DNA from: Escherichia phage vB_Eco_slurp01
Direction: 5' to 3' (one strand)
Sequence record: LT603033
Length of the DNA stretch: 64,000 nucleotides
Below are positions 45,441 to 62,964 of this stretch, piece by piece. The position numbers and the translations under genes were made by a program. The notes under the pieces were generated by a model that worked only from the letters and a program-made list of their open reading frames with translations, made no database searches and was not told where the DNA came from. Within the stretch, counting starts at the first letter, position 1. Each line of letters starts with the position of its first letter.

Positions 45441-46060
45441 ATTTTATTTTGTTTTTCCAATAGTTCCCCTACCGCGTGGGGATAGTTTCCCCGCAGTATC
45501 TGGAGTTAGATTTTTCTGAATCTGGAATCATTATCTTATAAACTGGGGGCAATGTCAACGACCTGGACGGATATTTTTAAAAATTTTTTCAGTACTGAAT
45601 TTTGGGCGTAACTATGCACCCGGTGGGCTTGAGTCTTTCTCGACTTGATGGAACTATTATACAGTACTGGAAAAATAAAGCAATACCCTGGATGAAAAAA
45701 GTTTTAATTAATTTGCTTGCCATCCTGGGCCGGACTATGGTACTATAATTCAGTACTGAGAAAGTGCGTTAACCTGCTAGGGTGCGGGAGTGTATCCTTT
45801 TTTTATATCTTGAATTTTGGACGGATCTTCCCACCCCCTGGGGTATCCGCTTTCTCGCGTCTATGTAGTAATTATACGCTTTTTCAGGATCAAGTCAATA
45901 CCTAAAAACAAAATAATTGAAAATAATTTAACGCGTTTAAACGGCCCGTAAAGCCCTGGAATGATTGGAATGGTGCAAATGTATAGCTTGGGTGTATTAA
46001 TGCGTTAGAATGCGTCTGAGGCCGTTTTACGGGGTGTAGTAGTGATTTGGTGGATTGATT

Positions 46061-46205
46061 CAGTACTGAATAATAGTACTCCTATATAGAAAGATAGTTC
46101 CCCTGGATGGTTGCAGTACTGAATAATAGTACTCCTATATAGAAAGATAGTTCCCCTGGATGGTTGCAGTACTGAATAATAGTTCCCCTATATAGAAAGA
46201 AAACT
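46061..46205. repeat. tandem direct repeat, about 53 bp x about 2.7
   Basis: CAGTACTGAATAATAGTACTCCTATATAGAAAGATAGTTCCCCTGGATGGTTG repeated. Confidence 0.85.
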
Positions 46206-46231
46206 ATTTTAAAAGTATTTGTAGAAAGTAC

Positions 46232-46259
46232 TTGCAAACTATGTTTAACGGCGTATAAT
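46232..46259 (+). promoter_or_regulatory. sigma70-like early promoter
   Basis: TTGCAA, 16 bp spacer, TATAAT, then GTTTTACATC and 5'-UTR hairpin GCGGGAA-CAC-TTCCCGC. Confidence 0.6.
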
Positions 46260-46314
46260 GTTTTACATCGAGAGCGGGAACACTTCCCGCTACATATTAC
46301 GAGAGATTAAAACG

Positions 46315-46677
46315 ATGGCGACTCAAATCACTAAAATTATTGCTAACCTGGTTAACTTTCGCGACGAGATGAAAGATCTTCCGGCAGAAACGGTAAAAAT
46401 TCACATTGCAGCTTATCGGGAACTTATTGCAATGTTACCTCTTAAGCGTGAACAATACGCCGCTACCGTGATGCTTGATGCGATGATCCATAAGATGATC
46501 GCCAGTGATTTAACGATGGTTTATCAGTATATGGGCGAAAATTTCGCGGTGTATAGTAAACCAGTACCAGGAATGGAAAGTACAGAAGTATTACACGGTT
46601 TAAATTTAAAACAAGATGCATGGGATAATATGCCTCGTTTCCTGGTATGGGCTGACAGTGGCAAAATTTACGAATAA
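46315..46677 (+). CDS. hypothetical protein
   Basis: ATG at 46315 downstream of promoter/hairpin; track N-extension is promoter translated. Confidence 0.6.
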   Translation: MATQITKIIANLVNFRDEMKDLPAETVKIHIAAYRELIAMLPLKREQYAATVMLDAMIHKMIASDLTMVYQYMGENFAVYSKPVPGMESTEVLHGLNLKQDAWDNMPRFLVWADSGKIYE

Positions 46678-46691
46678 GTTTAATAAAGTAC

Positions 46692-46719
46692 TTGCAAACT
46701 ATGTTTAATGGCGTATAAT
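46692..46719 (+). promoter_or_regulatory. sigma70-like early promoter
   Basis: TTGCAA + 16 bp + TATAAT; hairpin TGGGGAA-TAG-TTCCCCA downstream. Confidence 0.6.
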
Positions 46720-46770
46720 GTTTTACATCAGGTGGGGAATAGTTCCCCACTATATAAGAGGATTAAAAAA

Positions 46771-47010
46771 ATGGCTAAATCAAAAATGTTCTTAGGTCAC
46801 AAAAACAAAACTCATTGGAATGTAAGCCTTTGGATTAATAACGATGAATCATTATACCGGTTGGCCCTGGACTTTATTGCCGCCAATACTAATCGCAATG
46901 ATGCGGCCCGTCATATGATGTTATTTTTAGAACAGACTGGACAAGATAAAACACCGGACGGATTCAAATATAGCACTACTGCGATCCGTGCGGCAATGGT
47001 TGGAATGTAA
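46771..47010 (+). CDS. hypothetical protein
   Basis: RBS AGAGGA; 79 aa. Confidence 0.6.
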   Translation: MAKSKMFLGHKNKTHWNVSLWINNDESLYRLALDFIAANTNRNDAARHMMLFLEQTGQDKTPDGFKYSTTAIRAAMVGM

Positions 47011-47098
47011 TAGAATAGAATTTATTTAAAGTACTATTGCACGGGGATAGTACTTTATAATAGTGTTTTATTCATACACCAACGATAAGGGCAACAGC

Positions 47099-47365
47099 AT
47101 GAATATTAAGTATTTTGCGACGCGTGAACAAGCTCGGATCGCCGCACGCCAGGACGGGGCAACGTTTAAAGATATGGGCGTACAATCGGAACGTGGTAAA
47201 CGTTGGGCCATTGTAAAGCGTAGTACCGCCAGATCATTACAGTACTGGTTAGCGGCCTTAAAAAGACCCGATAGTGTATCGCGACGAGTGGTAGAAATAA
47301 AGCTCGACCGAAAGGGCAACCGCGTGACCGTGTACCGTACTAAAAAGATTGCAGTACTTGAATAA
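47099..47365 (+). CDS. hypothetical protein (paralog of 58556..58951)
   Basis: Shares FYATRE.AR..AR.DGA.FKDMG...RW and RKGNRVTVY motifs with 58556 ORF. Confidence 0.65.
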   Translation: MNIKYFATREQARIAARQDGATFKDMGVQSERGKRWAIVKRSTARSLQYWLAALKRPDSVSRRVVEIKLDRKGNRVTVYRTKKIAVLE

Positions 47366-47372
47366 AAAGTAC

Positions 47373-47400
47373 TTGCAAACTATGTTTAAAGGCGTATAAT
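47373..47400 (+). promoter_or_regulatory. sigma70-like early promoter
   Basis: TTGCAA + 16 bp + TATAAT; hairpin GCGGGAA-CTC-TTCCCGC downstream. Confidence 0.6.
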
Positions 47401-47452
47401 GTTTTACATCGAGAGCGGGAACTCTTCCCGCCTATAACCTGGAGTAATAAAA

Positions 47453-60909: not shown

Positions 60910-60993
60910 GTATTGACAAAGTATCTTAGTACTGTATAATAGTTTACATCAAGGGGAGAATAGTTCTCCCCGATACTAAAAGGAAACAAAATT

Positions 60994-61266
60994 ATGTCCA
61001 GCTACTCCGCTACTATGATCATTAAAGATATGAACGGTAATCCTACTTCTGCTGGTGGATCATTTGGAAACATTAACTTAGATGGTCGGTTATCAATTGA
61101 ATCAGCCATCAATGCAGCGAAAGAAGTTTTTAAGAATGAATGTACTGTTAGTAAGCTGGATTATATGGGATTCGCTATCGAGAAAACTACTCGTTTTGTG
61201 AACTACAAAAATCCACTGATGATTGATACTAACCTGAAAGCTAACGAAGTGGGGTACTTATTATGA
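60994..61266 (+). CDS. hypothetical protein
   Basis: RBS AAAGGAAA; 90 aa. Confidence 0.6.
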   Translation: MSSYSATMIIKDMNGNPTSAGGSFGNINLDGRLSIESAINAAKEVFKNECTVSKLDYMGFAIEKTTRFVNYKNPLMIDTNLKANEVGYLL

Positions 61267-61454
61267 CAGTTGAAGAAGTTAAAAAAGTACTGGCAGTACT
61301 ACGCTATCATAACCATTGCAAGGTTAAGAATGATCCTGATTATGTTGATTCATCCCTGGAGGAAGACACATTAAACGCAATAAGCCATATGCAAACATTA
61401 GCAAAGCGTATGACCGAAAAGAATAGACCGGACTATATCGGAAATAAAATTTAA
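61263..61454 (+). CDS. hypothetical protein
   Basis: ATGA overlap; 63 aa. Confidence 0.55.
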   Translation: MTVEEVKKVLAVLRYHNHCKVKNDPDYVDSSLEEDTLNAISHMQTLAKRMTEKNRPDYIGNKI

Positions 61455-61540
61455 AAAGTACTTGCATTGTAGTTAGATTAACGTATAATGTTTTACATAG
61501 AGCGGGGGAATAGTTCTCCCGCCAGTCCGGGAGATACACC

Positions 61541-61807
61541 ATGAACACTATCGAAATCACTATCAATGCACACGTATACGACAACGTAGTACTGCAAACT
61601 ACTATGACCGCTAATGATACCAGTACTTTGCGGAATACCGTTGTAAGTGCTGTATGTGCTGCAATCGGTGATGTAGCCCTGGAAAATGCAGAACACATCA
61701 ACAACGGTTTCACTATGTGCAAACGTGATAACGCAAAACATATCATCTTAGAAGGTTACGGCGGTGTAGAATATAATCTTTATATGAAAAAAGTACTTGC
61801 AAAGTAA
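61541..61807 (+). CDS. hypothetical protein
   Basis: Promoter/hairpin/RBS module; 88 aa. Confidence 0.6.
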   Translation: MNTIEITINAHVYDNVVLQTTMTANDTSTLRNTVVSAVCAAIGDVALENAEHINNGFTMCKRDNAKHIILEGYGGVEYNLYMKKVLAK

Positions 61808-61872
61808 CTAAAACAAAGTATAATGTTTTGCATAGGGGGAGATATCCTCCCCCACTAATAAGGAGTACTAAA

Positions 61873-62097
61873 ATGGCTAACTTTGATGAACTGATGCGGG
61901 AAGTAGCTAACCTGGCAGAAGAGAAGAAATCATTCGATTCTATCTATAACACCGCTTACAGTGATTCAGTACTGGCATGTACTCAGGATCAAAAAGATGA
62001 ACTAATCGCCACATATCATGAAGCATGGAAGTACTACCGCCAATGGGAGAAAGAAGAAAGCGAGTCTACCATCAACGGCATCAATAATCTAATCTAA
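61873..62097 (+). CDS. hypothetical protein
   Basis: RBS AAGGAG; 74 aa. Confidence 0.6.
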   Translation: MANFDELMREVANLAEEKKSFDSIYNTAYSDSVLACTQDQKDELIATYHEAWKYYRQWEKEESESTINGINNLI

Positions 62098-62172
62098 AGT
62101 TTTATTTCAGTACTATTGACATAGCTTGATAGTACTGATATGATAACTTTACTAACTACAAGGGGAAACATC

Positions 62173-62430
62173 ATGGAACAATTCACACAATATCGGGTAA
62201 ATCCTCAAGCTATGGCCTACGTAGAAGACCATAAAACGTTACCAGTACTGCAACCAGTTAAAGGCCATATCTATCGTGCGATGGCGTGGAGTACTGCCCA
62301 GGATGGCTATAAAACCGTTGCCGTTGGTATGTACTGCGGTAATGGTGAATGGTTTGATCCAAATAATCCGGTAGCAATTGACAGTACTGAAAAAATGAAA
62401 TGGGCCGACTACATCGAAGATATTTCATAA
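62173..62430 (+). CDS. hypothetical protein
   Basis: Promoter TTGACA...; RBS AAGGGGAAA; 85 aa. Confidence 0.6.
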   Translation: MEQFTQYRVNPQAMAYVEDHKTLPVLQPVKGHIYRAMAWSTAQDGYKTVAVGMYCGNGEWFDPNNPVAIDSTEKMKWADYIEDIS

Positions 62431-62520
62431 AAACTATTTGACAGTACTAACCAGTAATGTATAATGTTTTACATAGAGCGGGGGAATAGTTCTCCCGCCA
62501 ATAGTTTGGAGTAAAACATT

Positions 62521-62721
62521 ATGTCTATCGCTCTCGCCCTGGTTGAAGTACTGAAAGAAGCTAAAGCCAACCTTATCGATGTACAGATTAAGGAATTGCA
62601 AAATGGTTTAATCGGCTGTACTTGTACCGCTGGTGGAGCGGCAGACTATCGAGAACACGAATCACTAGAATCGTTGGTCCGGTATCTTACAATCATCGTA
62701 GAAGATTGGAGAATCATCTAA
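62521..62721 (+). CDS. hypothetical protein
   Basis: Hairpin GCGGGGGAA-TAG-TTCTCCCGC upstream; 66 aa. Confidence 0.55.
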   Translation: MSIALALVEVLKEAKANLIDVQIKELQNGLIGCTCTAGGAADYREHESLESLVRYLTIIVEDWRII

Positions 62722-62738
62722 CAAAAAAGAATAAAAAA

Positions 62739-62771
62739 GGGATTGACTCCGGTCAGTCCCTTTGCTATTAT
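62739..62771 (+). promoter_or_regulatory. stem-loop/promoter hybrid (variant)
   Basis: GGGATTGACTCCGGTCAGTCCC + TTTGC + TATTAT. Confidence 0.55.
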
Positions 62772-62964
62772 ATACGCATAGACAAAAACTAGCCCACAGG
62801 GTGCATAGGTGTATCTAAAATATATAGTTAATAACGGTGAGTAACTATCTGCTGGTGGAGTGAAAACTATTAATAAAAAGTATTGACAAAGTATATCAGT
62901 ACTGCAATAATGTATCTCGTAGGGCGGCAATGGTGCGACGGTCCACAAAGTTAGGAGATTCAAA

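What the first reader, a model, noticed from the sequence alone, without database searches (positions are those of the whole stretch)
45610..62817. Recurrent intergenic motif GCCCACAGGGTGCA(N4-6)TGTATCTAT in both orientations
Near-identical copies occur at about 45777, 47766, 53652, 55316, 57255, 60519 and 62791 (forward) and 45615, 47823 and 49352 (reverse complement, TGCACCCGGTGGGCT). At 47766/47823 a forward and reverse copy flank about 30 bp, giving a potential long stem-loop. Several copies sit just downstream of the hairpin/promoter hybrids and upstream of the AT-rich early promoters, forming composite cassettes (for example 57203..57500 and 62739..62960). This could be a transcription-factor binding site, a recombination hotspot bounding mobile gene modules, or part of a structured RNA.
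Basis: seen in the sequence. Interest (0 to 1): 0.5.

Follow-up and report, generated by a model that had tools for sequence, protein, structure and literature searches.

The report
Promoter-fused structured RNA module family
The repeated motif is the invariant core of a ~48-nucleotide structured RNA that starts at the first transcribed base of a subset of strong early promoters in the terminal repeat of a jumbo E. coli phage, is conserved across several related phage genera, and matches no described RNA family.

Summary
A covariance model finds 11 copies (9 strong, 2 decayed), all at 45.6-62.8 kb and none in the other 44 kb. The window is an Asteriusvirus-like (121Q/PBECO4/RaK2-type) jumbo phage, and the copies lie in its direct terminal repeat.

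Every copy sits behind a near-consensus sigma-70 promoter in the same orientation. Conservation starts at the predicted +1 and stops about 47 nt later.

The unit has four parts:
- A 5' hairpin, H1. All four pairs covary, with about 18 different stems.
- A YUAR linker.
- An invariant CCCAYAGGGUGC.
- A tail, GYRYCY, which is what pairs with GGGUGC.

Two hairpins, H2 (CCC/GGG) and H3 (GGGUGC/tail), are therefore mutually exclusive.

I found 138 distinct copies in RaK2, GAP32, CBB, Serratia BF, an Erwinia phage and uncultured jumbo contigs. There were none in PA5oct or in bacterial genomes, and no Rfam hit.

About 40% of copies point against all genes, and some have their own terminator. I therefore read the unit as a self-contained early non-coding RNA module, a non-coding variant of the phage's standard early leader. 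Its function is unknown.

Neither a DNA operator nor a recombination boundary is supported.

The parts
53599..53627 (+). P1 promoter (TTGACT-17-TATTAT). Its -35 lies inside a terminator-like hairpin at 53592-53619.
53634..53680 (+). Exemplar unit RNA. Predicted +1 is A53634. H1 is 53636-53639 paired with 53646-53649 (UGAG/CUCA, loop AGAUAG). The linker is 53650-53652. H2 is 53653-53663 (GCCC ACA GGGU). H3 is 53660-53677 (GGGUGCA GGAG UGUAUCU).
   Evidence: CM 54.1 bits
60475..60503 (+). P1 promoter (TTGACT-17-TAATAT), a hairpin/promoter hybrid
60510..60556 (+). Unit RNA (H1 UGAG/CUCA)
   Evidence: CM 58 bits
57207..57235 (+). P1 promoter (TTGACT-17-TATTAT) inside the terminator-like hairpin at 57200-57227
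57242..57283 (+). Unit RNA, H1-less variant (AUAGAAACAAAUCAG + core + tail). A Chi site follows at 57288.
   Evidence: CM 32.2 bits
62743..62771 (+). P1 promoter (TTGACT-17-TATTAT) inside the hairpin at 62736-62763
62778..62819 (+). Unit RNA, H1-less variant
   Evidence: CM 39.6 bits
55261..55289 (+). P1 promoter (TTGACA-17-CATAAT, with TG and CCAGTACTGG in the spacer)
55296..55344 (+). Unit RNA (H1 GACG/CGUC). It lies upstream of the DksA/TraR-like ORF at 55588-55845.
   Evidence: CM 34 bits
47714..47742 (+). P1 promoter (TTGACT-17-CATAAT)
47749..47794 (+). Unit RNA (H1 UGGC/GCCG), convergent with the unit at 47810-47850
   Evidence: CM 45.5 bits
47810..47886 (-). Promoter (47886-47858, TTGACA-17-CATAAT) plus an H1-less unit (about 47850-47810) on the minus strand. 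This is the convergent partner.
   Evidence: CM 24.2 bits
49339..49422 (-). Promoter (49422-49394) plus a unit (49387-49339) on the minus strand, pointing against all genes
   Evidence: CM 37.3 bits
49293..49313 (-). Bidirectional terminator hairpin about 26 nt beyond the 49339 unit. It would end a discrete transcript of about 100 nt with no ORF.
   Evidence: sequence
45601..45683 (-). Promoter (45683-45656, TTGCTT-16-TATAAT) plus a unit (about 45649-45601) in the gene-free left end of the terminal repeat
   Evidence: CM 48.6 bits
45816..45898 (-). Promoter (45898-45871) plus a decayed unit (45864-45816, core CCCCAGGGGGUGG)
   Evidence: CM 16.9 bits, E = 0.02
45717..45808 (+). Decayed plus-strand copy with a weak promoter at 45717-45746. 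The CCC half of the core is lost. The remaining H3 (45779-45798, AGGGUGCGGGAGUGUAUCCU) is followed by U7 and so is a canonical intrinsic terminator.
   Evidence: CM 16.1 bits; terminator scan

Best explanation
The motif is the invariant core of a ~48-nt structured RNA module. The module is fused to its own strong sigma-70 promoter and repeated about 11-14 times in the direct terminal repeat (pre-early region) of RaK2/121Q-type jumbo phages.

Shown:
- Host-type promoters lie directly upstream in the same orientation.
- Conservation runs from the predicted +1 to about +47.
- H1 is a covarying hairpin 2-3 nt from the 5' end.
- The 12-mer CCCAYAGGGUGC is invariant in 138 distinct copies.
- The tail is restricted to what pairs with GGGUGC.
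- H2 (RCCC-AYA-GGGU) and H3 (GGGUGC-loop-GYRYCY) cannot coexist, because they share GGGU.

Inferred mechanism:
1. Host RNA polymerase makes this RNA as one of the first phage products.
2. H2 forms first during transcription. Once the tail emerges, H3 is usually the more stable hairpin and replaces it. This leaves YUAR-CCCAYA exposed between H1 and a 3' hairpin.
3. The module itself is the functional product. It is either a stand-alone transcript of 50-110 nt or the 5' piece of a longer transcript.
4. Its invariant 12-mer acts as a sequence-specific recognition site for a host or phage macromolecule, by recruitment or titration.

I put about 0.85 on 'RNA-level element transcribed from its own promoter' and about 0.35-0.4 on 'self-contained RNA product acting through the 12-mer'. 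The binding partner and the physiological effect are unknown.
For: Identity and location
- The window is Asteriusvirus-like, and the copies lie in the annotated direct terminal repeat.
- There are 11 copies, all within that repeat. None is found in window 1-44,500 with filters off.
- In CBB all copies (987-20,929) fall inside the annotated 22,456-bp repeat.

Promoters
- A near-consensus -35/-10 pair lies 21-29 nt upstream of the core in nearly all copies.
- The upstream profile of 88 distinct copies shows an A-rich UP region, TTGAC and TAtaaT. The -10 ends 6 nt before the conserved A at model position 2.
- No positional conservation remains beyond the model end.

H1
- 93% of cells are paired. 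All four pairs show both-sided changes (27-43 sequences each), and 0 of 500 shuffles reach the observed score. Slid controls give 13-59%.
- A second set of 60 copies from metagenomes gives 91% paired.
- The four highest mutual-information column pairs are exactly the H1 pairs.
- RNAalifold predicts H1 and H2 on its own.

H2
- 99% of cells are paired. Two sequences carry the compensatory change CCU/AGG.

H3
- 88% of cells are paired against 30-57% when slid. The U-A/U.G and G.U/G-C pairs have no unpaired cells.
- 24 units that were neither in the first set nor selected by the retrieval pattern give 82% against 30-66% slid.
- H3 is more stable than H2 in 60 of 88 copies.

Self-contained product
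- 5 of 11 window copies, and a similar share in the other genera examined, point against all genes.
- Some copies have a terminator 20-80 nt downstream. Examples are RaK2 12020+, 21909+, 8248- and 15316-, and window 49339-.
- A few have a U-tract directly after H3.

Distribution and novelty
- Copies occur in RaK2, GAP32, CBB, 121Q, Serratia BF, Erwinia Hallingskeid and uncultured jumbo contigs.
- None occur in PA5oct or in bacterial genomes.
- Rfam gives no hit.
Against: - No transcript data exist. The start sites, the 3' ends and the RNA itself are all predictions.
- Most plus-strand copies lack a terminator. They are followed 22-160 nt later by another strong promoter and genes, so they may simply be 5' leaders.
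- Thermodynamic support is weak. The mean z-score is -0.96 for the sense strand against -0.49 for the antisense.
- H2 and H3 rest mostly on one-sided or invariant pairs. I derived H3 from these same sequences.
- Pfam on 40 terminal-repeat ORFs found no candidate RNA-binding partner.
- Invariance of the 12-mer would also fit recognition as DNA.
Confidence: 0.4

Rival explanations
1. The unit is a cis-acting leader that changes how the transcribing host polymerase behaves, through processive antitermination or anti-pausing (like HK022 put or lambda nut) or through H2/H3-controlled attenuation or pausing. H2 would act as antiterminator or pause hairpin. H3 plus the A/U-rich tract would act as a weak terminator or pause site.
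For: - The unit starts at +1 of early promoters.
- Four plus-strand units are fused to terminator/promoter hybrids that head gene blocks of about 2-3.5 kb containing further terminators.
- H2 and H3 are mutually exclusive.
- In a minority of copies H3 is followed by a U-tract and is a bona fide terminator. Examples are window 45779-45798, GAP32 17327+ and 6597+, and CBB 987+.
- GG-N8-U(G) in the core and spacer fits the consensus elemental pause in about half of the copies. The pause consensus is from my own knowledge.
Against: - About 40% of copies point against all genes or converge on each other, with nothing to express downstream.
- Most copies have AUU, AUA or AAAA after H3, not a U-tract.
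- Nearly every gene has its own consensus promoter, so read-through is not obviously needed.
- No boxA-like element was seen.
Confidence: 0.3
2. The unit is only a 5' stabiliser, or an evolutionary by-product. On this view it is a non-coding derivative of the phage's standard early leader whose 5' hairpin protects transcripts from 5'-end-dependent decay, with no function specific to the 12-mer.
For: About 20 of 32 other early promoters in the window give leaders of the form CAUCAAG - strong 5' hairpin - ACUAA - SD - AUG. The units share the CAU(C)AAG start, the hairpin position and the (C)ACUAA/YUAR linker.
Against: - A by-product would not keep 12 nt invariant in 138 distinct copies across at least five genera while neighbouring positions drift.
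- H1 is much weaker (3-5 bp) than the standard leader hairpin (8-9 bp, -12 to -14 kcal/mol).
Confidence: 0.1
3. The 12-mer is a DNA-level site: an operator or roadblock for a phage or host DNA-binding protein just downstream of a promoter subset.
For: - The core is invariant with almost no covariation.
- Its position relative to the promoter is fixed.
Against: - H1 covaries next to it.
- The tail varies only by changes that keep G.U, G-C, U-A or U.G pairing on the sense strand. These become A.C mismatches on the other strand.
- The core has no dyad symmetry.
- Orientation always follows the promoter.
Confidence: 0.07
4. The units are recombination cassettes of the PeSL type: repeated regulatory DNA that mediates gene shuffling.
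For: - They are repeated and promoter-containing, and some carry an upstream stem-loop.
- They lie in a hyperplastic region of tiny ORFs.
- PeSLs are described for T4-like phages (PMC4122927, PMC2839356).
Against: - All six indel junctions between the window and vB_Ec-M-J fall at ordinary promoter or terminator cassettes, at about 46.7, 48.8-49.0, 50.15, 51.6-51.7, 55.87 and 56.1-56.5 kb.
- The units lie inside collinear blocks.
- Microhomology does not explain the H1 covariation.
Confidence: 0.08

Closest known systems
HK022 put RNA / lambda nut (boxA-boxB): promoter-proximal RNA elements that modify the transcribing host polymerase
   Same: It is a short structured RNA encoded just downstream of early phage promoters that use host RNA polymerase. 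It has two small hairpins. H1, with its small stem and purine-rich loop, loosely recalls boxB. This comparison rests on my own knowledge.
   Different: - There are 11-14 copies per repeat instead of two.
- About 40% of copies are oriented against the genes or convergent.
- No boxA-like element was seen.
- The invariant 12-mer has no counterpart.
- No antiterminator protein was identified.
- Effects on termination are untested.
PeSL cassettes of T4-like phages (Arbiol 2010, PMC2839356; Comeau 2014, PMC4122927)
   Same: Both are repeated composite regulatory cassettes with a near-consensus sigma-70 early promoter, often with a stem-loop just upstream, located in regions of small variable ORFs of T4-related phages.
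   Different: - By the published definition a PeSL ends in the Shine-Dalgarno sequence and start codon of a gene, and its stem-loop lies upstream of the promoter.
- Here the conserved part is a non-coding transcribed module downstream of +1.
- The units do not bound the indels tested.
Phage-encoded small RNAs, and leader-derived regulatory RNAs such as P4 CI RNA
   Same: The unit has its own promoter, is short and structured, and in some copies has its own terminator. It contains mutually complementary segments (CCC / GGGUGC / tail). This recalls RNA-RNA control of termination in P4, which I cite from my own knowledge.
   Different: - It is multi-copy with one invariant core.
- No target was identified.
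- The 3' ends are unknown.
- No homology was detected (Rfam).
ncRNA001 and ncRNA002 in the terminal repeat of the related jumbo phage PA5oct (PMC7318152)
   Same: They are abundant non-coding transcripts from the long direct terminal repeat of a distantly related jumbo phage that uses host polymerase.
   Different: The model finds no copy in the PA5oct repeat; the best hit is 11 bits with E = 0.7. This is an analogy of location only.

Membership tests
Any Rfam 15 family | Covariance-model match at or near the family's gathering score | tested here: not met
   There were no matches at gathering thresholds in the window. With E up to 5 on 44-64 kb there were four weak hits (miRNA and Trp-leader models), none on a unit.
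PeSL cassette | Near-consensus sigma-70 early promoter | tested here: met
PeSL cassette | Stem-loop immediately upstream of, or overlapping, the promoter | tested here: inconclusive
   This holds for the four hybrid promoters at 53592, 57200, about 60470 and 62736. It does not hold for the CCAGTACTGG-type promoters at 47714, 55261, 47886 and 49422.
PeSL cassette | The cassette ends in the SD and start codon of the downstream gene | tested here: not met
   The units are followed by a non-coding module. The next ORF has its own promoter, or there is no ORF at all.
PeSL cassette | Located at indel or replacement junctions between close relatives | tested here: not met
   Junctions against vB_Ec-M-J lie at ordinary promoter or terminator cassettes. 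The units lie inside collinear blocks. Only one genome pair was tested.
put/nut-type antitermination RNA | Encoded just downstream of an early promoter, on the transcribed strand | tested here: met
put/nut-type antitermination RNA | Placed upstream of terminators and genes whose expression depends on read-through | tested here: not met
   About 40% of copies face away from all genes or converge. Most genes have their own promoter.
put/nut-type antitermination RNA | Suppresses termination or pausing by the polymerase that made it | not testable with these tools
   This needs in vitro transcription.
Intrinsic terminator / attenuator | G+C-rich hairpin immediately followed by a U-tract | tested here: not met
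   H3 is G.U-rich (-3.5 kcal/mol on average) and is usually followed by AUU, AUA or AAAA. Only a few copies have a U-tract.
Stand-alone bacterial-type sRNA gene | Own promoter plus own Rho-independent terminator and no ORF | tested here: inconclusive
   This holds for a subset (RaK2 12020+, 21909+, 8248- and 15316-; CBB 10219- and 16111+; window 49339-). No terminator was found for most plus-strand copies.
DNA operator for a dimeric regulator | Dyad-symmetric site whose variation is strand-neutral | tested here: not met
   The core has no dyad symmetry. Tail variation is strand-specific and wobble-compatible. The neighbouring H1 covaries.

The most novel reading that the evidence does not exclude
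The units are a first-wave RNA weapon or switch. More than twenty strong promoters (two repeat copies) would flood the cell with one invariant 12-nt RNA epitope within seconds of DNA entry. That RNA would either titrate or retarget a conserved enterobacterial factor (a defence sensor, an RNA chaperone or nuclease, or RNA polymerase itself, put-like), or act in trans on nascent copies of itself to time the shut-off of pre-early transcription through the H2/H3 switch.
Probability: 0.25. Interest if true: 0.8.

Novelty: new variant of a known kind. Interest (0 to 1): 0.58.

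Why it matters
Early host takeover by RaK2/121Q-type jumbo phages is essentially unstudied, and their terminal repeats hold about 50 tiny genes of unknown function. A multi-copy RNA with an invariant core that is conserved across genera and made from the first DNA to enter the cell is a concrete handle on that phase.

If it recruits or titrates a host factor, or reprograms host RNA polymerase, it would be a new RNA-based takeover or regulatory device. Even as a leader element, it defines a new structured RNA family with good covariation and an apparent bistable core. 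It is easy to test by 5'/3'-end mapping, in vitro transcription and pull-downs.

Tried and rejected
- Known RNA families and tRNAs. Rfam at gathering and permissive thresholds and ARAGORN found nothing on the units.
- Pseudoknot between the H1 loop (AGAUA) or the 5' end and the tail (UAUCU). It looked good by eye in a few copies, but mutual information over 88 sequences shows no long-range covariation apart from H1.
- Alternative tail hairpin GCGG-AGAU-CCGU, which would be compatible with H2. It is possible only in the GGAGAUCCGU subtype and is not general.
- Recombination-boundary idea. It was rejected on one genome pair.
- Leader peptide or mini-ORF. About half of the copies have SD-like GGGUG plus NUG, but the third base of the putative start is G in only 49%, and the following 'codons' vary non-conservatively.
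- AGTACTG as part of the unit. It follows many units at 4-28 nt, but it is over-represented genome-wide, so it is a separate feature.
- Trans pairing of the unit's AGCCCAC with terminators. Three terminator-like hairpins use AGCCCAC/GTGGGCT arms, but this fits only the G-type units, so I treat it as a lead only.
- Homology to the PA5oct terminal-repeat ncRNAs. None was found.
- Copies in bacterial genomes. Six chance-level pattern hits in unrelated taxa were all rejected by the model.
- Partner protein. Pfam on 40 repeat ORFs gave no RNA-binding domain.
- Resemblances recalled from memory were inspected by eye and not pursued, because the defining bases do not match in all copies. These were the RfaH ops element, CsrA sites, the type I-F CRISPR repeat, the hammerhead core, and T-box/tRNA 3'-end pairing.
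- Literature. The CBB genome paper, the PeSL papers and jumbo-phage transcriptome papers do not describe the motif.

Full report
WHAT THE WINDOW IS

The region 45-64 kb is 90-96% identical to Asteriusvirus-type jumbo coliphages (vB_Ec-M-J, BF17, 121Q, PBECO4 and others). Window position 44,519 aligns to base 1 of vB_Ec-M-J, whose first 21.5 kb are annotated as a direct terminal repeat. The finding therefore lies in the terminal repeat, an array of about 50 tiny plus-strand ORFs. Window 1-44.5 kb is the other genome end.

THE OBSERVATION

The 14-mer with up to 3 mismatches occurs 12 times against 1.9 expected, and 0 of 100 shuffles reach 12. Nine matches have 2 mismatches or fewer, and all nine are at 45.6-62.8 kb. 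I built a covariance model from 15 copies and ran it with filters off. It finds 11 copies in the window:
- 45601-45648(-)
- 45746-45800(+), decayed
- 45816-45863(-), decayed
- 47748-47794(+)
- 47810-47846(-)
- 49339-49386(-)
- 53633-53680(+)
- 55298-55344(+)
- 57241-57283(+)
- 60509-60556(+)
- 62783-62819(+)

The next hit scores 9.4 bits with E = 3.8.

ANATOMY

Each copy lies 21-29 nt downstream of the -10 hexamer of a near-consensus sigma-70 promoter in the same orientation. I aligned 88 distinct copies from several phages. The upstream profile shows an A-rich UP region, TTGAC, a 17-nt spacer and TAtaaT. The -10 ends 6 nt before a conserved C/T-A at model positions 1-2, which is the textbook start-site position. 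Downstream of model position 48 there is no positional conservation, only A+T richness. Conservation therefore spans predicted +1 to about +47.

The promoters come in two flavours:
- Terminator-like hairpins that contain the -35 (GGGATTGAC-TCCG-GTCAGTCCC-TTTGCTATTAT), at 53.6, 57.2, 60.5 and 62.7 kb.
- TTGACA-N9-CCAGTACTGGCATAAT.

Within the unit:
- After 2-3 nt comes hairpin H1, with 3-5 bp and a purine-rich loop of 6-8 nt (AGAUAA, GAGAAA, GCGAAA, AGAACAA, GGAACAAA). About 18 different stem sequences occupy the same place. A minority of units lack the 5' arm.
- A YUAR linker follows.
- Next comes the invariant CCC-AYA-GGG-U-GC.
- Next comes RRARNU.
- The tail is G/C/A-Y-R-Y-C-Y, followed by A and U/A.

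STRUCTURE TESTS

H1. On 88 distinct sequences, 93% of cells are paired. All four pairs carry both-sided changes (27-43 sequences each), and 0 of 500 shuffles reach the observed covariation. Slid controls give 13-59%. Sixty further copies from metagenomes give 91%. The four top mutual-information column pairs are the H1 pairs, and no other long-range pair stands out. RNAalifold predicts H1 and H2 without guidance. H1 sequence types such as UGGC-AGAUAA-GCCG and AGCA-AGAACAA-UGCU recur across genera, so the independent covariation events number about 10-18, not 88.

H2 (R-CCC/GGG-U). 99% of cells are paired, but the helix is almost invariant. Two sequences carry a compensatory CCU/AGG change.

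H3 (GGGUGC(R) with (U)GYRYCY). 88% of cells are paired against 30-57% when slid. The U-A/U.G and G.U/G-C pairs are never broken, and one C-G to U-A change occurs. I derived H3 from these sequences, so I re-tested it on 24 units that were new and not selected by my retrieval pattern. They give 82% against 30-66% slid.

H2 against H3. The two hairpins share GGGU and cannot coexist. H3 is the more stable in 60 of 88 copies (mean -3.5 against -3.0 kcal/mol). Its G.U pairs exist only on the sense strand. Overall folding energy is unremarkable (z = -0.96 sense, -0.49 antisense), so the case rests on covariation and constraint, not on thermodynamics.

DISTRIBUTION

The cassette is detectable by BLAST in E. 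coli, Salmonella, Klebsiella, Cronobacter, Pectobacterium, Erwinia and Serratia jumbo phages. The model finds 125 hits (88 distinct) in RaK2, GAP32, CBB, 121Q, Serratia BF, Erwinia phage Hallingskeid and three uncultured jumbo contigs. It finds none in about 60 IMG/VR contigs that matched a 15-mer by chance. Metagenomes add 50 new distinct copies, again on jumbo-type contigs.

In CBB all copies (987-20,929) lie within the annotated 22,456-bp repeat. In RaK2 and GAP32 they occupy one stretch of about 20 kb in 40 kb examined. The terminal repeat of the distant relative PA5oct has none. A 20-base pattern scan of 185,579 bacterial and archaeal genomes gave six hits in unrelated taxa, and the model accepts none of them. 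Rfam has no match. The genome and transcriptome papers I could find do not mention the motif.

CONTEXT THAT BEARS ON FUNCTION

1. Five of 11 window copies, and a comparable share in GAP32, CBB, RaK2 and Hallingskeid, point against all genes.
2. Convergent pairs about 120 bp apart recur near the left end of the repeat in the genera examined. In CBB and GAP32 they also recur near its right end. The pairs are window 45746+/45863- and 47748+/47846-; CBB 987+/1097-, 3797+/3907- and 20819+/20929-; and GAP32 3768+/3878-, 6597+/6707- and 22878+/22988-.
3. Some copies are closed transcription units. Window 49339- runs about 26 nt further into the bidirectional terminator at 49313-49293. RaK2 12020+ and 21909+ have a terminator about 50 nt downstream. 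A few copies have a U-tract directly after H3, including the decayed 45779-45798 hairpin.
4. Other plus-strand copies are followed within 22-160 nt by another consensus promoter and then a gene.
5. The ordinary early promoters have a stereotyped leader. This applies to about 20 of 32 examined, ten of them perfect TTGACA-N16/17-TATAAT. The leader is CAUCAAG - strong hairpin (GGGGAGAA-AUGA-UUCUCCCC) - ACUAA - GAGGAAA - AUG. The units share the CAU(C)AAG start, the hairpin position and the (C)ACUAA/YUAR linker. The Shine-Dalgarno and start region is replaced by the 12-mer and tail. The unit thus looks like a non-coding derivative of the standard early leader.
6. Pfam on 40 repeat ORFs gives only a DksA/TraR zinc finger, a ParE-like domain, a weak kinase hit and two DUFs. 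No RNA-binding candidate appears.
7. Indels against vB_Ec-M-J are bounded by ordinary promoter or terminator cassettes, not by the units.

INTERPRETATION

That this is an RNA-level element made from its own host-type promoter is well supported (about 0.85). The precise function is not established.

Three things point to the module itself as the functional product:
- Many copies have no gene downstream.
- The module keeps the same boundaries (+1 to +47) in every context.
- One 12-nt sequence is invariant in 138 distinct copies, while its neighbours drift.

On this reading the 12-mer is a sequence-specific recognition site, presented first in H2 and then, after the tail is made, left single-stranded next to H3 (about 0.35-0.4).

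The main rival is a cis-acting leader affecting pausing, termination or antitermination of the transcribing polymerase (about 0.3). It is favoured by the H2/H3 competition and by the hybrid terminator-promoter placement at the head of gene blocks. It is disfavoured by the many antisense and convergent copies and by the lack of U-tracts. A pure 5'-stabiliser or relic reading (about 0.1), a DNA operator (about 0.07) and a PeSL-type recombination cassette (about 0.08, not exclusive of the others) are less likely.

COMPARISON WITH KNOWN SYSTEMS

The unit works most like promoter-proximal phage RNA elements (put, nut) or phage small RNAs, and it sits in PeSL-like regulatory cassettes. It fails the testable defining features of each:
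- It has no SD or start codon at its end and does not lie at indel junctions, so it is not a PeSL.
- It is not restricted to the gene direction, so it does not fit put or nut.
- It has no general U-tract, so it is not a terminator.
- It has no Rfam match.

I file it as a new variant of a known kind, namely phage early-leader and small-RNA modules, with unknown function.

Noticed in passing
whole window, e.g. 44320, 44380, 44440, 44500, 45049, 45075, 47728, 49323, 55275: The palindrome AGTACT occurs 284 times against 23.5 expected, and CAGTACTG 63 times against 0.9 expected. It is spread over the whole 64 kb, coding regions included. It also sits in promoter spacers (CCAGTACTGGCATAAT) and 4-28 nt after many units. 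A palindrome this over-represented genome-wide suggests a binding or modification site.
   Followed up: partly
window 45104(-), 45116, 51002, 54975, 56020, 57288, 59636, 61051, 62629, 62851 (+); also 14242, 26276, 37994: Chi sites (GCTGGTGG) occur 13 times against 0.65 expected. Nine are on the plus strand within the terminal repeat, and an oppositely oriented pair lies 600 bp from the left genome end. This suggests protection of the linear DNA ends from RecBCD. Two of the sites directly follow unit tails (57288, 62851).
   Followed up: partly
window 44314-44509: A perfect 60-bp tandem repeat of 3.3 copies, each carrying CAGTACTG, ends 10 bp before the position that aligns to base 1 of vB_Ec-M-J. 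That position is the terminal-repeat boundary.
   Followed up: no
window 45334-45433 and 46061-46200: The gene-free left 1.7 kb of the repeat holds arrays of GACGGCTAAACGGCTAGA-type repeats with 16/24/48-bp periods. It also holds a 53-bp repeat of 2.6 copies (97% matching) just upstream of the first ORF.
   Followed up: no
window 46259-62500, e.g. 46266-46300, 51427-51460, 54190-54225, 56507-56540, 60947-60980: About 20 ordinary early promoters share a stereotyped 5' leader: CAUCAAG, an 8-9-bp G+C-rich hairpin (GGGGAGAA-AUGA-UUCUCCCC, -12 to -14 kcal/mol), ACUAA, SD, AUG. Ten promoters in 20 kb are perfect TTGACA-N16/17-TATAAT.
   Followed up: partly
window 47965-48040, 57351-57440, 50273-50340: A third, non-coding leader type (CAUCAGGACGGGGAACGAAAYAAGUAACCCCGUUAAGUAGYCCAGGAGUAAG...) is transcribed from its own promoter. 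At 47.9 and 57.3 kb it lies between a motif unit and the gene's promoter. It shares GAAACAAG-UAACCC with H1-less units.
   Followed up: no
window 50168-50189, 50894-50915, 54960-54985: Three terminator-like hairpins use AGCCCAC / GTGGGCT arms. The 5' arm is identical to the unit's (U)AGCCCAC, and the third hairpin contains a Chi site. GTGGGCT occurs 11 times against 2.8 expected.
   Followed up: partly
window 46687-46766, 48803-48969, 50140-50189, 51603-51679, 55866-55878, 56115-56465: Gene-sized indels and replacements relative to vB_Ec-M-J have junctions at ordinary promoter or terminator cassettes. This is PeSL-like modular shuffling.
   Followed up: partly
window 59014-59268, 55588-55845, 59815-60456: Three small early ORFs have domain hits: a ParE-like toxin domain (E = 6e-11), a DksA/TraR zinc finger (E = 1.6e-10) and a weak protein-kinase match. 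The other roughly 35 repeat ORFs have no Pfam hit.
   Followed up: no
window 39500-44300: About 5 kb next to the repeat boundary has only short ORFs and a strong A-over-T skew (0.15-0.21) with negative GC skew. It may be a non-coding or unusually organised region.
   Followed up: no
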